Shown: piece after piece, positions 1 through 4,179 of the stretch
Numbering within the stretch: the first letter of the stretch is position 1
How the letters are laid out: every line of letters starts with the position of its first letter
NCBI GenBank assembly: GCA_000004985.1
Contig: GG739193.1
Length of the DNA stretch: 4,179 bases
From: Naegleria gruberi
Lineage: Eukaryota
Direction: 5' to 3' (one strand)
Notes under the pieces: model-generated
What the model saw: only the letters and a program-made list of their open reading frames with translations
What the model was told of the DNA's origin: nothing
Databases searched by the model: none
Translations under genes and position numbers: made by a program

Positions 1-419
1 TTGATTATTATTCATATTTATATAATGTTATATTATTAACATTAGTAGTACAATAATAGTGAAAAGTGTTGTTAATGGGTTATAATACTCAATTAATTAT
101 ATATTAAGGAAAAGTTGAGAATACTCGAATATTTAAACTATATATATTTGACTCGTAAAAAGTATATACTCTTTTATATATATTATTATAAAATGATGAT
201 ATTAATATACTTACAAATATATTTATAATTATTATTCCTAATAAAAATTACAATATATTAATAGTATTTATTTAAAGATAAATATGAGAATGACGCAATA
301 ATATTCAATCTATCAATAATTGAATGATATTAATGCAATAGTAGTAGTGTTCTGTGATGGATGGGATCTTTTTTTAATGTAATTGTGTAAATAAAAGCTT
401 CACAATAATATGAGAGAGA

Positions 420-640
420 GCCATCTCTCCTCATTTAGACATTGAATAACCATGTTGATTTTCATGCTCGTAATGGAGGCGTATTGGAAAAAGTGCCCCC
501 TATGTGAGAGTTCCTCAATACTACCAATGAAGAGTTCTCACTCAAGACACATCATCACCACCCAAACACACTCTCTCTCATTCAAACGCTCCACATTTGA
601 AATTGTGTGCTCAATGATGTGAACAAAAGGAGAGATAATA
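420..640. other. C-rich, GC-rich compositional island of unknown nature. It could be a ncRNA gene, a relic of a mobile element or foreign DNA, or a small ORF.
   Basis: My manual count over 481..580 gives 44/100 G+C, split as 31 C and 13 G on the + strand. The flank at 181..280 gives 9/100. The island holds pyrimidine tracts (ctctctctc at 571..579, caccaccc) and the gagagagag/ctctc pair at 412..429. It also has an internal direct repeat, agagttcctca (507..517) and agagttctcac (531..541), and a 6-bp inverted pair, gtgaga 504..509 with tctcac 536..541. Confidence 0.5.
452..622 (+). CDS. Speculative 56-codon small ORF inside the GC-rich island, encoding MLIFMLVMEAYWKKCPLCESSSILPMKSSHSRHIITTQTHSLSFKRSTFEIVCSMM. 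It contains a CxxC motif.
   Basis: ATG 452 to TGA 620..622 is open. However the codons are G/C-ending (ctc, gcg, ccc, cac, atc, acc, cgc), unlike the large gene next to it. There is no A-run start context, and the ORF is short. It is more likely a chance ORF in a non-coding GC-rich element. Confidence 0.12.
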   Translation: MLIFMLVMEAYWKKCPLCESSSILPMKSSHSRHIITTQTHSLSFKRSTFEIVCSMM

Positions 641-690
641 TCATTAAAGGTTGATAATTTTATTAGGATAGTAAGGAAACCTAATAAGGG

Positions 691-716: not shown

Positions 717-1009
717 TAAAATATTGATAATTATAAGACAATAGAATAATTGACTTAATTTTTGACATGAATAATCTCTAATCTTGTAATATTAAATAAT
801 TATAATAAATTTTTACAAGTGTATTTAACTTTAAATATTTTCACTTCAATAGATAATTTGAGAACAGTAATTAATTGTATGTGATAATTTCTTTATTTCA
901 ACAACACTTGGCTAGTAGTGTATTCAAAATATATTAAGTTTAAATATCGGAATAATTGTTAAACTATTATGAATGATAAATAATTATCATGATCCAATAG
1001 CCAACATTA

Positions 1010-1064
1010 AAATGTCAGTGATAGGAAATAAAATCAGTAATATTAAATTCCATCACTGACATTT
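1010..1064. repeat. Perfect 13-bp inverted repeat with a 4-bp inner extension, predicted to form a hairpin, immediately upstream of the start codon.
   Basis: aaatgtcagtgat (1010..1022) is the exact reverse complement of atcactgacattt (1052..1064). After a one-base bulge at a1023, ggaa (1024..1027) pairs with ttcc (1048..1051). The loop is about 20 nt. The stem is relatively GC-containing (gtcagtg) in about 90%-AT surroundings. It ends 12 nt before ATG 1077. Confidence 0.8.
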
Positions 1065-1076
1065 GACAATAAAAAA

Positions 1077-1769
1077 ATGTTTAATCTTCTTCGTAGACTT
1101 TCAAATGTAAATGAAGAAGCAATAGAATCAAATAGTAATTTAAATAATCCCATATCATCATCATCATCTAATACAAATACAAATAGTACTAGTTCATTAT
1201 CTAAAATATTACCACCATTAAAAGATTCAAAATTATTTTCATCTGATTTTAAACGTAATAATAATAAACAACAACAACATGAACATGAACAACAAATAAC
1301 ATCAGATGATTCATCAGATGAAGATGATGATATTATGAATAATTTACATTTGACACCTAAAAGTCAATCATTAACACAATCAAATCCACTTTCAACCACT
1401 TCATCTTTATTTACTTCTACTACACCTTCATCATCTGTTAATAATACATCATCATCATCTAAAAATCAATTTGGATCATGGTTATTAGCTACACCACGTA
1501 GAAGTCAATCTACCACTTCATCACCTATTATAAATAATTCAGTATCAAATCAATCATCATCATCAGTTGCATCAAATAATTATAATAATACTTCACCATT
1601 CAGAAGATTTTCAGTATTTTCAAGTAATCATCACAATAATAATAATAGTAGTGCATTTGGATTTTTAACGAGTAGGAGTAGTTTCTCCTATTCATCTCCT
1701 TCACCTTCATCAAGGAAAAAAATTCATCATCATCCTCCTCTACTACTACTAGTAATAATCATAATCATT
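1077..1769 (+). CDS. 5' part of a large low-complexity (Ser/Asn/Thr-rich) protein. The N-terminus is MFNLLRRLSNVNEEAIESNSNLNN. The CDS is partial because it runs into the N-run.
   Basis: The ATG at 1077 is the first ATG after an in-frame stop at 1044..1046. It sits in an a7-ATG-t context, the A-run Kozak-like motif typical of dictyostelid genes. The frame stays open for 231 codons in very AT-rich DNA, where random frames close within about 10 codons. Codon usage is dictyostelid-like (tca, aat, caa, tta, att, cca, ggt), and (tca)4-5, (caa)3 and (act)3 microsatellites encode S, Q and T runs. The reading frame of the last roughly 50 nt before the gap is uncertain; see the finding at 1682..1769. 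Confidence 0.6.
1155..1169 (+). repeat. (tca)4-tct trinucleotide repeat encoding SSSSS. It is the representative case; similar (tca)n runs occur at about 1446..1460 and 1553..1564, and (caa)3 occurs at 1269..1277.
   Basis: Direct reading. The repeat is in frame with the 1077 CDS. Confidence 0.85.
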
Positions 1770-2648
1770 NNNNNNNNNNNNNNNNNNNNNNNNNNNNNNN
1801 NNNNNNNNNNNNNNNNNNNNNNNNNNNNNNNNNNNNNNNNNNNNNNNNNNNNNNNNNNNNNNNNNNNNNNNNNNNNNNNNNNNNNNNNNNNNNNNNNNNN
1901 NNNNNNNNNNNNNNNNNNNNNNNNNNNNNNNNNNNNNNNNNNNNNNNNNNNNNNNNNNNNNNNNNNNNNNNNNNNNNNNNNNNNNNNNNNNNNNNNNNNN
2001 NNNNNNNNNNNNNNNNNNNNNNNNNNNNNNNNNNNNNNNNNNNNNNNNNNNNNNNNNNNNNNNNNNNNNNNNNNNNNNNNNNNNNNNNNNNNNNNNNNNN
2101 NNNNNNNNNNNNNNNNNNNNNNNNNNNNNNNNNNNNNNNNNNNNNNNNNNNNNNNNNNNNNNNNNNNNNNNNNNNNNNNNNNNNNNNNNNNNNNNNNNNN
2201 NNNNNNNNNNNNNNNNNNNNNNNNNNNNNNNNNNNNNNNNNNNNNNNNNNNNNNNNNNNNNNNNNNNNNNNNNNNNNNNNNNNNNNNNNNNNNNNNNNNN
2301 NNNNNNNNNNNNNNNNNNNNNNNNNNNNNNNNNNNNNNNNNNNNNNNNNNNNNNNNNNNNNNNNNNNNNNNNNNNNNNNNNNNNNNNNNNNNNNNNNNNN
2401 NNNNNNNNNNNNNNNNNNNNNNNNNNNNNNNNNNNNNNNNNNNNNNNNNNNNNNNNNNNNNNNNNNNNNNNNNNNNNNNNNNNNNNNNNNNNNNNNNNNN
2501 NNNNNNNNNNNNNNNNNNNNNNNNNNNNNNNNNNNNNNNNNNNNNNNNNNNNNNNNNNNNNNNNNNNNNNNNNNNNNNNNNNNNNNNNNNNNNNNNNNNN
2601 NNNNNNNNNNNNNNNNNNNNNNNNNNNNNNNNNNNNNNNNNNNNNNNN
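1770..2648. other. Run of 879 N, either an assembly gap or a hard-masked segment. Sequence is unknown, so no feature can be called inside it.
   Basis: Direct observation of n characters. The left flank enters the run through trinucleotide microsatellites (cat/cct/act/aat). That is consistent with an unassembled low-complexity coding repeat, but this is inference. Confidence 0.95.
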
Positions 2649-2649
2649 T

Positions 2650-4179
2650 GAACATTATTTTGATTTTAAATTAATTATAAATATTGTACAATATTTTAGA
2701 AGTTTACAATTTAAAAATATTTTAGAAATTAATTTTAATATTAATCATATTTTAAATTCAAATTTACAAAATAATTTTTTATTTAATGGATTATCAATTT
2801 CATATTGGTTATATATTTTTACTTTTATAGATATTTCTAATTTTAGTAATTATAAAACAATTAGTGAATCATGTAAATATTTTAATATTATTTTAAAACA
2901 TCCATTTTTATTATTTCAATTTTTAATTCATTTTATTCCAATTCAACATTTAGAAACAAATTCAATTTTATTATTTCAACAATTTAAATTTTTTAATTTA
3001 AAATTTAATTATGAACATTTTTGTTTATCTTTAATTTTAGATAAATTTAGTCAATTTACAAATTTAGATTTTTTAAATAATCAATTATCTATACTTGCTA
3101 ATTTAAATCATATTCCAACAAATCATCATTCTTTATTTCATCATTTTAAAAATAAAAATGAATTAGATTTATCACCTTCTATAAATGGTAATAATAATAA
3201 TTTAAATAATAATTCAAATAATAATTTAAATAATAATAATGGTAGTAGTAGTAGTAGTGGAGGTAATACACCCAATACACCCAATACACCAAGAGGTAAT
3301 TTAACACCACGTGGTAAATCATCAACTCCTAATACTCCTAATACTCCGAATGAAAATATTGATGAAATTTTTAAACAACAAGAAGAATTAAATTCATCTT
3401 TTAATTCTAATCATAATTCTAATAGTCATTCTAATAATAATTCTAATAATTCTAATAATAATGATAATAGTAAAACATCTATAGATATATATAAATACAT
3501 TTATAGAAATATTAAAAATAGAATTCATTTAATTGATAATGAATATCAAAATGTTAATGATTTTATTAAATTAAAATATAGTATTGGTGATAGAGATAGA
3601 TTAATACAAAAAACAATTTTAAATTTATTAAATGAAGAATTATCATTAAAATTTTATCATTTCCAAAAAAAGAAATTAACAAATTATAGAAAAAATGAAT
3701 TAAGTAATTTATTTGGAATTTATTATAATAGAAAATGTGAATTTTATTTTATTACATTTGGTCAATATATATTTTCAATTCATTGGAAGAATTTTGAAAT
3801 TTATTTAACTAAAATTAATAATAATATTTCCATATATAGTACTTGTACACATTTTGATCATTTTGAAAATTTTAAACATAATTCATTAAATAATATTAAA
3901 AATATTAATTTAGAAGGTAATTGGACAGCATGTTTAAAATATTATAGTAATAATTATGATTCCTTTTTTGAAACTAAATATTTTTTAAAAATTAAAAAAA
4001 TTGATTTACATTATCATGCAGATATTGATACTATAAATTTAGAAAATGATGATGAAAATAATGAATTTAATTTATTAAATATTTCACATGAATCAATGGA
4101 TTTAGATCATTTAATTTCCAATTATGGAAAAGTAAAAATGGAAATTGCATTAAAAAATACACCTAAAAATAGAAATAGT
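2650..4179 (+). CDS. Continuation of the same protein-coding gene, most likely the downstream part of the 1077 gene. It is partial at both ends and runs off the window. It contains an Asn/Ser low-complexity linker with a Thr-Pro repeat cluster, then a non-repetitive C-terminal region.
   Basis: The frame with codon starts at 2650, 2653 and so on is open for all 510 codons from the gap edge to the window end. The other two + frames hit stops at 2661 and 2672. This stretch is 64-87% AT by my manual counts of 100-120-nt segments. Across that range a stop-free run of 510 codons happens by chance with negligible probability. The first in-frame ATG is at 4096, so no start codon exists for 482 codons and translation must begin upstream, in the gap or at 1077. 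Codon usage is dictyostelid-like. The ORF track omits it because there is no stop inside the window. Confidence 0.65.
3244..3258 (+). repeat. (agt)5 microsatellite encoding SSSSS within G-SSSSS-GG.
   Basis: Direct reading. The codons 3241 ggt, 3244 agt and following are in the open downstream frame. Confidence 0.85.
3265..3291 (+). repeat. Tandem 9-nt repeat, three copies (aatacaccc, aatacaccc, aatacacca), encoding NTP-NTP-NTP.
   Basis: Direct reading. The three units are in frame. Confidence 0.85.
3322..3348 (+). repeat. Second imperfect tandem 9-nt repeat (tcaactcct, aatactcct, aatactccg), encoding STP-NTP-NTP with different codons from the first block.
   Basis: Direct reading. Thr is act here versus aca upstream, and Pro is cct/ccg versus ccc/cca. 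Confidence 0.75.

What the first reader, a model, noticed from the sequence alone, without database searches (positions are those of the whole stretch)
1010..1064. Perfect 13-bp inverted repeat forming a long hairpin 12 nt upstream of the start codon
aaatgtcagtgat and atcactgacattt form an exact 13-bp inverted repeat with a 4-bp inner extension and a roughly 20-nt loop. A 6-7 bp palindrome in about 90%-AT intergenic DNA is expected by chance. A 13-bp perfect one containing gtcagtg is not. If this region is transcribed as 5'UTR, a stem this stable next to the AUG would be expected to inhibit scanning, which suggests translational control. If it lies upstream of the transcription start, it is a candidate dimeric transcription-factor site with tgacat half-sites. 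A second tgaca follows directly at 1064..1068, and there is also a tgacatgaa at about 755..763, inside tttttgacatgaataatc (744..761).
Basis: seen in the sequence. Interest (0 to 1): 0.5.

Follow-up and report, generated by a model that had tools for sequence, protein, structure and literature searches.

The report
Perfect hairpin repeat before start codon
A real, non-random 13-bp perfect inverted repeat lies 12 nt upstream of the start codon of an orphan gene in very AT-rich, social-amoeba-like DNA. It most likely forms a moderately stable RNA stem-loop that encloses a short upstream reading frame, but nothing shows it is a dedicated regulator rather than a recent local duplication.

Summary
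It is unusual for one window. It is the longest perfect repeat here, and 2/300 shuffles reached 13 bp. About 0.1-0.6 such 17-pair hairpins are expected per 34 Mb. Its stability is less exceptional: -19 to -20 kcal/mol at 37 C, -21.9 at 30 C, -25.2 at 22 C, and 11/300 shuffles of the AT-rich spacer fold as well somewhere. That sits at the yeast threshold (-22) below which leader hairpins have no measurable effect. Indirect signs (a T-rich tract at 887-899, a T-to-A skew switch near 900, excess structure in 900-1090 only) suggest the hairpin is transcribed. No transcription start data exist. No related sequence was found: the gene has no homologue, and the hairpin has no match in metagenome, prokaryote-genome or viral scans. 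Copy number and conservation are therefore untested. Best reading: a young local inverted duplication in the 5' leader that mildly dampens translation. A functionless template-switch product is nearly as likely. Interest is low.

The parts
1010..1022 (+). Left arm of the perfect 13-bp inverted repeat (AAATGTCAGTGAT). It contains the upstream ATG at 1012-1014.
1052..1064 (+). Right arm (ATCACTGACATTT), the exact reverse complement of the left arm. It contains the uORF stop TGA at 1057-1059.
1023..1051 (+). Spacer between the arms: bulged A1023, inner 4-bp extension GGAA/TTCC (1024-1027/1048-1051) and a 20-nt A/T-rich loop (1028-1047).
1012..1059 (+). 15-codon upstream ORF (MSVIGNKISNIKFHH, context aaaATGt) running from arm to arm. 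It stops 17 nt before the main ATG. ATG 973 is in the same frame and gives a 28-codon version.
   Evidence: whether it is transcribed or translated was not tested
1077..1769 (+). Start codon and first 231 codons of the downstream S/N-rich orphan ORF. An N gap (1770-2648) interrupts it, and it resumes in frame 2650-4179.
887..899 (+). Nearest sense-strand T-rich tract (TTTCTTTATTT) upstream of the ATG. It is a candidate marker of the transcription start at about 900 (inferred only).
   Evidence: rule from PMC3371697
908..1004 (+). Tentative structured domain upstream of the hairpin: closing stem TTGGCTA/TAGCCAA (908-914/998-1004) around three small hairpins, including the GATA-type palindrome ATGATAA/TTATCAT at 973-979/984-990.
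   Evidence: z = -2.3 alone; weak
1086..1119 (+). Small second hairpin just after the AUG (CTTCTTC/GAAGAAG, -11.1 kcal/mol, z = -2.6). The AUG therefore sits in an unpaired A-rich linker between two stems.

Best explanation
The feature is a young, locally generated inverted duplication, most simply one replication template-switch event that copied about 18 nt in reverse complement. It lies in the transcribed 5' leader of an orphan gene. In the mRNA it folds into a 17-bp stem-loop (13 perfect pairs, a bulge, then 4 pairs; 20-nt loop) that ends 12 nt before the AUG. The stem encloses a 15-codon uORF whose AUG is in the left arm and whose UGA is in the right arm.

Proposed mechanism (inferred): scanning 43S complexes meet a good-context uAUG at the foot of a stem of borderline stability. 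Some initiate there and terminate 17 nt before the main AUG, which is too close for efficient re-initiation. The rest must melt the stem. Together this gives a mild to moderate constitutive reduction in translation, not a switch.

Shown here: the repeat, its non-randomness, the robustness of the fold and the uORF. Inferred: transcription of the region, any effect on translation, and the template-switch origin.
For: - The perfect repeat and its extension are confirmed.
- Chance expectation is low for a 17-pair hairpin with 6 G/C pairs: 2e-5 or less per 1 kb and 0.14-0.63 per 34 Mb.
- The fold dominates in every context tried, with pair probability 0.93-0.98.
- The stem carries on past a bulge. 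That fits a hairpin or a single copied block, not two protein half-sites.
- The 29-nt spacer is easy for an RNA loop but awkward for a cruciform or an ordinary dimer site.
- The uORF start and stop sit in the arms.
- The T-rich tract at 887-899 and the T-to-A skew switch near 900 lie upstream of the hairpin, matching the D. discoideum start-site rule (PMC3371697).
- 900-1090 folds with z = -4.6 and 900-1009 with z = -2.3, while 700-899 gives z = +1.5.
- Template switching is documented to create perfect stems in one step, including in promoters (PMC8794818; PMC13100816).
- The arms are all Watson-Crick with no G-U pair or mismatch, as expected for a recent copy.
Against: - There are no transcription start, RNA-seq or ribosome data.
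- No canonical TATAAA(A/T)(A/T) occurs within 800 nt on the sense strand, and no poly-T run of 6 or more lies near 900.
- The putative 176-nt leader would hold four uATGs (969, 973, 989, 1012). That is about the chance density, so there is no sign of the purifying selection expected in a leader.
- Stability is at the edge of what matters: -21.9 kcal/mol at 30 C against a -22 threshold in yeast.
- 11/300 shuffles reach the same energy somewhere in the spacer.
- No homologous locus exists to test conservation, covariation or the ancestral state.
Confidence: 0.38

Rival explanations
1. It is a functionless by-product. A template-switch or other local inverted duplication happened to land near a start codon and has no measurable effect on transcription or translation, either because it is not in the mRNA or because the stem is too weak to matter.
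For: Template switching makes perfect reverse-complement copies in a single event and is frequent in promoters. The arms are flawless, with no G-U pairs, which suggests youth and not maintained RNA pairing. The energy is at or below the yeast no-effect threshold. 11/300 shuffles match that energy. uATG density in the candidate leader is at chance level. There is no evidence of conservation or recurrence.
Against: The repeat ends exactly 12 nt from the AUG, and a good-context uAUG in the leader would normally have some effect if transcribed. Excess structure is confined to 900-1090. None of this is strong.
Confidence: 0.3
2. It is a DNA-level palindromic binding site in the promoter. Two identical 13-bp half-sites in inverted orientation are bound by a dimeric or tetrameric sequence-specific protein. 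Their centres are 42 bp apart, about four helical turns, so both sit on the same face of the helix.
For: The symmetry is perfect on both strands. The arms are the most G/C-containing segment in an AT-rich stretch (69% AT against 76-82%), and specific motifs in AT-rich promoters tend to be like that. Another TGACA follows at 1064 and a GATA-type palindrome lies at 973-990. Expanded inverted repeats can alter promoter output in yeast.
Against: A 29-bp spacer is far longer than in usual eukaryotic dimer sites. The symmetry carries on into the spacer past a bulge, which a half-site model does not need. TGACA/TGTCA is not enriched in 1-1076 (4 copies, two of them the repeat). The 13-mer has no close second copy in the window. 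No known factor can be assigned.
Confidence: 0.15
3. It is a relic of a mobile element: the two terminal inverted repeats of a tiny MITE-like or internally deleted DNA transposon.
For: The 13-bp perfect terminal-style repeats enclose a short AT-rich core, and the arms contain CAGTG/CACTG, which is reminiscent of Tc1-type ends (from memory).
Against: There is no target-site duplication of 2-10 bp at any of four trimmed boundaries. CAGTG lies at the inner end of the arms, not the outer end. The window holds no second copy. There are 0 matches in metagenome, GTDB-genome and viral scans, although those collections are unlikely to hold the host.
Confidence: 0.07
4. It is the precursor of a small RNA: a miRNA-like hairpin or a mini box C/D RNA. 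The minus strand reads GUGAUGG ... CUGA ... CUGA with a 5-bp terminal stem.
For: The energy per nucleotide (-0.46 kcal/mol/nt at 22 C) passes the D. discoideum miRNA hairpin criterion of below -0.2 (PMC6161686). Weak generic Rfam hits to miRNA and snoRNA models fall on the hairpin.
Against: All Rfam hits score 15-20 bits against gathering scores of 45-75. A 17-bp stem cannot hold a fully paired 21-nt duplex. The C-like and D-like boxes are Watson-Crick paired to each other's complements, so no kink-turn can form. At 55 nt it is short for a box C/D RNA. The class I motif and the DUSE are absent.
Confidence: 0.04
5. It is pure coincidence in AT-rich DNA.
For: 2/300 shuffles reach a 13-bp perfect repeat. 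Under an iid model, hundreds to about 1,700 perfect 13-bp repeats of any composition are expected per 34 Mb.
Against: With its G/C content and 4-bp extension the expectation falls to 0.14-0.63 per 34 Mb. z = -5.9, with 0/200 shuffles matching.
Confidence: 0.04

Closest known systems
Cap-distal 5'-leader stem-loops that impede scanning (Kozak-type hairpins; synthetic yeast hairpin modules, PMC7445769)
   Same: [quoted passage not shown] It acts by making the 43S complex unwind it. Its position, 12 nt before the AUG, resembles the yeast modules.
   Different: At -19 to -22 kcal/mol (37-30 C) it sits at the no-effect boundary of the yeast series (-22). It is far below the roughly -50 kcal/mol needed in mammalian extracts (own knowledge of Kozak 1986/1989). 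Its presence in the mRNA is unproven.
Upstream ORF control of translation (GCN4/ATF4-type leaders)
   Same: A short uORF (15 codons) with a good-context AUG ends 17 nt before the main AUG.
   Different: There is one proximal uORF, plus three more uATGs further upstream, and no organised multi-uORF switch. The uORF start and stop are base-paired to each other's arms, which is not a feature of the known systems. No evidence of translation.
Template-switch-generated hairpins (PMC8794818; promoter repeat expansions in yeast, PMC13100816)
   Same: A perfect reverse-complement copy tens of nucleotides from its template, lying in a promoter or leader region, with no mismatches.
   Different: The defining evidence, an ancestral state lacking one arm, cannot be obtained here.
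Iron-responsive element (5'UTR type)
   Same: A 5'-proximal hairpin containing the hexamer CAGUGA.
   Different: In an IRE, CAGUGN is the apical loop on a 5-bp upper stem with a bulged C. Here CAGUGA is buried in the perfect stem. No Rfam IRE hit even at E <= 10.
MITEs / terminal inverted repeats of DNA transposons
   Same: Short perfect inverted repeats flank a short AT-rich core.
   Different: No target-site duplication. No second copy is detectable anywhere that could be searched.

Membership tests
Scanning-inhibitory 5'-leader stem-loop | Lies in the transcribed leader between cap and AUG | tested here: inconclusive
   No transcription start data. The T-rich tract at 887-899, the skew switch near 900 and excess structure in 900-1090 favour it. 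The absence of a TATA consensus and four uATGs argue against.
Scanning-inhibitory 5'-leader stem-loop | Stability beyond the threshold that reduces initiation | tested here: inconclusive
   -19.1 (37 C), -21.85 (30 C) and -25.2 (22 C) kcal/mol. The yeast threshold is about -22 at 30 C (PMC7445769).
Scanning-inhibitory 5'-leader stem-loop | Pairing conserved or covarying in relatives | not testable with these tools
   No homologous locus was found.
uORF-mediated translational control | uAUG with an in-frame stop upstream of the main AUG | tested here: met
   ATG 1012 (context aaaATGt), stop TGA at 1057-1059, 15 codons.
uORF-mediated translational control | The uORF is in the mRNA and occupied by ribosomes | not testable with these tools
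   Needs start-site mapping and ribosome profiling.
Iron-responsive element | Apical CAGUGN loop on a 5-bp upper stem with a bulged C | tested here: not met
   CAGUGA (1016-1021) is inside the stem and its flanks AAUGU/UAGGA do not pair. No Rfam hit.
MITE / DNA-transposon inverted-repeat pair | Target-site duplication flanking the repeats | tested here: not met
   No 2-10 bp direct repeat at boundaries trimmed by 0-3 nt.
MITE / DNA-transposon inverted-repeat pair | Multiple dispersed copies in the host genome | not testable with these tools
   The host genome is not available. 0 hits in metagenome, GTDB and viral scans and no second copy in the window.
miRNA precursor (D. discoideum criteria, PMC6161686) | Hairpin holding a roughly 21-nt duplex with small-RNA reads from both arms | tested here: inconclusive
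   The stem is only 17 bp (17/21 would be paired). The energy per nt passes. There are no read data. Rfam miRNA hits score about 20 bits against gathering 45-74.
Box C/D snoRNA | C box RUGAUGA and D box CUGA forming a kink-turn next to a terminal stem | tested here: not met
   The minus strand has GUGAUGG (6/7) and CUGA, but both are fully Watson-Crick paired in the perfect repeat. Length is 55 nt. Rfam snoRNA hits score 15-19 bits against gathering 45-60.
Dictyostelid class I RNA | 11-nt motif CCUUACAGCAA and an upstream DUSE (both motifs recalled from memory) | tested here: not met
   0 matches with up to 2 mismatches. No exact DUSE, and 1-mismatch hits are below chance.
Palindromic dimeric transcription-factor site | Two inverted half-sites at short fixed spacing | tested here: not met
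   The half-sites are perfect but the spacer is 29 bp, centre to centre 42 bp.
Palindromic dimeric transcription-factor site | Motif recurs upstream of co-regulated genes | not testable with these tools
   The window holds only one gene start.
Template-switch inverted duplication | Perfect reverse-complement copy within about 100 nt of its template | tested here: met
   13/13 identical arms 29 nt apart.
Template-switch inverted duplication | Outgroup shows an ancestral state without one arm, changed in one event | not testable with these tools
   No related sequence could be retrieved.

The most novel reading that the evidence does not exclude
The hairpin and the uORF form one purpose-built module. 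Because the uAUG and the uORF stop codon are base-paired to each other's arms, the folding state of the stem would decide whether ribosomes start at the uAUG or bypass it. Folding could depend on temperature (-19 kcal/mol at 37 C, -25 at 22 C), helicase activity or a binding protein. The module would then act as a translational switch for this lineage-specific gene.
Probability: 0.07. Interest if true: 0.5.

Novelty: new member of a known kind. Interest (0 to 1): 0.2.

Why it matters
If the stem and uORF are transcribed and active, this would be a compact natural example of translation damping in an organism whose leaders are otherwise almost structure-free. It would also be a convenient test of how sensitive an AT-rich translation system is to a stem of about -20 to -25 kcal/mol. 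If it is a neutral template-switch product, it only illustrates how perfect hairpins arise next to genes. In neither case does it open a long-standing question.

Tried and rejected
Comparative genomics was tried and failed:
- The downstream protein found nothing in three word-index searches (C-terminal 510 aa, C-terminal 235 aa, middle 176 aa).
- An exhaustive HMMER search gave one hit. It was a spurious repeat protein.
- There are no Pfam domains.
- The 56-aa ORF in the GC-rich island is not on record.

Pattern scans:
- The whole hairpin (13-mer arms, 15-45 nt spacer) gave 0 hits in metagenome, GTDB-genome and viral contigs.
- A 23-mer from the GC-rich island gave 0 hits in metagenomes and genomes.

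Literature string search for the arms returned only unrelated primer matches.

Families rejected:
- tRNA.
- Any Rfam family.
- IRE, box C/D snoRNA, class I RNA with DUSE.
- MITE (no target-site duplication).
- Cruciform: the 29-nt spacer makes extrusion unlikely (inference).
- A coding exon or intron covering the hairpin: there is no AG acceptor in 1047-1076.
- A bacterial-type promoter or terminator: the scan showed no enrichment of promoter-like sites and is irrelevant for a eukaryote.

One earlier estimate assumed 5 G/C pairs per arm. That was wrong and was corrected to 4.

Full report
**Context.** The 4179-base window is very AT-rich. An ORF rich in S, N and Q starts at ATG 1077, is interrupted by 879 N (1770-2648), and resumes in frame 2650 to the end of the window. 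Composition and codon choice (AAT, CAA, TCA, GGT, CCA, TTA) look like a dictyostelid social amoeba. That is my inference; no tool named the organism. The 524-aa ORF listed is an artefact of reading through the N run.

**Check of the observation.**
- The arms AAATGTCAGTGAT (1010-1022) and ATCACTGACATTT (1052-1064) are exact reverse complements.
- After a bulged A1023 the pairing continues with GGAA/TTCC (1024-1027/1048-1051), leaving a 20-nt loop.
- The repeat ends 12 nt before ATG 1077.
- ATG 1077 is the true start of the ORF. The frame opens at 1047 and there is no AG acceptor in 1047-1076.
- As RNA the plus strand folds at -20.2 kcal/mol (z = -5.9, 0/200 shuffles as good). The minus strand gives -21.0 (z = -4.6), and single-stranded DNA gives -14.8 (z = -6.2).
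- The stem persists in contexts of 180-400 nt with mean pair probability 0.93-0.98.
- For the 55-mer alone the energy is -19.1, -21.85, -23.9 and -25.2 kcal/mol at 37, 30, 25 and 22 C.
- Side claims: TGACA at 1064-1068 is right.
- Local AT content is 76-82%, not about 90%.
- Each arm has 4 G/C pairs. My first estimate assumed 5 and is superseded.

**Is it more than chance?**
- It is the longest perfect repeat with a loop of 60 nt or less in the window. The next longest is 11 bp.
- Only 2/300 dinucleotide shuffles of 1-1076 reach 13 bp.
- Under an iid model, 13-bp or longer perfect repeats with at least 4 G/C pairs are expected 2-5e-4 times per 1076 nt and 7-16 times per 34 Mb.
- The 17-pair hairpin with one bulge and at least 6 G/C pairs is expected 0.14-0.63 times per 34 Mb.
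- Thermodynamically it is less special: 11/300 shuffles of the AT-rich spacer contain an 80-nt window folding at -20.2 or better.
- The perfect symmetry is therefore not a coincidence, but the stability alone is not extraordinary.

**What surrounds it.**
- The left arm carries an ATG (1012, context aaaATGt, as good as the main aaaaaATGt). The right arm carries the matching stop (TGA 1057-1059). Together they define a 15-codon uORF, MSVIGNKISNIKFHH, ending 17 nt before the main ATG.
- Further uATGs lie at 969, 973 (same frame, 28 codons) and 989.
- A 7-bp palindrome with inverted GATA motifs sits at 973-979/984-990.
- A small hairpin follows the AUG (CTTCTTC/GAAGAAG, 1086-1119, -11.1 kcal/mol, z = -2.6). 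The AUG therefore lies in an unpaired A-rich linker.
- The segment 900-1090 folds better than shuffles (z = -4.6). The segment 900-1009 alone is weakly structured (z = -2.3). The segment 700-899 is not (z = +1.5).

**Where might transcription start?** In D. discoideum, sense-strand poly-T tracts end about 2 bp before the start site and a TATAAA(A/T)(A/T) box sits about 29 bp upstream (PMC3371697).
- No such TATA box occurs within 800 nt of the ATG.
- The T runs are at 759-763 and 810-814, and the nearest T-rich tract is at 887-899. None lies between the hairpin and the ATG.
- AT skew switches from T-rich to A-rich near 900 and peaks over 970-1050.
- These signs weakly favour a start near 900, which would put the hairpin about 110 nt into a roughly 176-nt leader.
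- Against this, four uATGs in 176 nt is what chance predicts, so there is no visible selection against them.

[quoted passage not shown] Stronger ones cause a steep decline (PMC7445769). This hairpin is -21.85 at 30 C and -25.2 at 22 C, so it is at the boundary. From my own knowledge of Kozak's work, mammalian systems tolerate about -30 kcal/mol cap-distal stems.

**Comparative evidence could not be obtained.**
- The protein has no homologue in the word-indexed collection or in the exhaustive HMMER search. The single hit there is a repeat-protein artefact.
- There are no Pfam domains.
- The hairpin pattern is absent from metagenome, GTDB-genome and viral contigs.
- These collections are unlikely to hold the host, so copy number in the source genome remains untested.

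**Families considered.**
- No tRNA.
- No Rfam hit near a gathering score. The best hits on the hairpin are generic miRNA and snoRNA models at 15-20 bits against thresholds of 45-75.
- CAGUGA is in the stem, not in an apical loop, so it is not an IRE.
- The minus strand reads GUGAUGG...CUGA...CUGA, but these boxes are fully Watson-Crick paired, so no kink-turn can form.
- The class I RNA motif and the DUSE are absent.
- There is no target-site duplication.
- The 17-bp stem is short for a 21-nt Dicer duplex, although the energy per nt would pass the D. discoideum criterion (PMC6161686).

**Verdict.**
- My best reading (0.38) is a young local inverted duplication, probably a template-switch product (PMC8794818; PMC13100816). 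It lies in the 5' leader and forms a stem-loop with a uORF that mildly dampens translation.
- A functionless duplication is almost as likely (0.30).
- A DNA-level protein-binding palindrome is possible (0.15), but the 29-bp spacer and the bulged inner extension count against it.
- A transposon relic (0.07), a small-RNA precursor (0.04) and pure chance (0.04) are minor.
- The feature belongs to known kinds. Interest is low (0.2).

Noticed in passing
window 400-650 (wider 340-700): A GC-rich island (41-43% GC in 100-nt windows, against 12-20% on both sides) sits in the middle of the upstream spacer. It holds a perfect 11-bp inverted repeat ATGAGAGAGAG/CTCTCTCTCAT (410-420/571-581) and a 20-nt, 75% repeat (423-442/617-636). 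It also holds a CA/CT-rich run caccacccaaacacactctctctc (556-579) and a 56-aa ORF (452-622). The minus-strand fold has z = -3.0 and the plus strand z = -1.1. There is no Rfam, Pfam, class I/DUSE or collection match. It could be an unannotated ncRNA, an enhancer block (the run resembles GBF-type CA-rich elements, from memory) or a transposon relic. It may be more interesting than the hairpin.
   Followed up: partly
window 1012-1059: A 15-codon uORF has its ATG in the left arm and its TGA in the right arm of the hairpin. ATG 973 is in the same frame (28 codons). Further uATGs lie at 969 and 989.
   Followed up: yes
window 973-990: A perfect 7-bp palindrome ATGATAA/TTATCAT with a 4-nt spacer (inverted GATA motifs) lies 20 nt upstream of the large hairpin.
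   Followed up: no
window 900-1009: The predicted closing stem TTGGCTA/TAGCCAA (908-914/998-1004) encloses three small hairpins (z = -2.3). Together with the big hairpin, 900-1090 gives z = -4.6, while 700-899 gives z = +1.5. The boundary coincides with the T-rich tract at 887-899 and the AT-skew switch.
   Followed up: partly
window 1086-1119: A second small hairpin lies just after the start codon (CTTCTTC/GAAGAAG, -11.1 kcal/mol, z = -2.6). Its 3' side overlaps 1103-1115, a 3-mismatch copy of the left arm, which could pair with the right arm instead (1053-1066/1101-1114, 86%).
   Followed up: partly
window 1770-2648: An 879-base N gap lies inside the coding region. The reading frames on its two sides differ (1077 against 2650), so any ORF call across the gap is an artefact.
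   Followed up: yes
window 1077-1769 and 2650-4179: The downstream protein is an orphan. It has no homologue in the roughly 15-billion-protein collection by word-index or exhaustive HMMER search, and no Pfam domain. It has long N/S-rich low-complexity tracts and a PNTPNTP repeat at about 3268-3350.
   Followed up: yes
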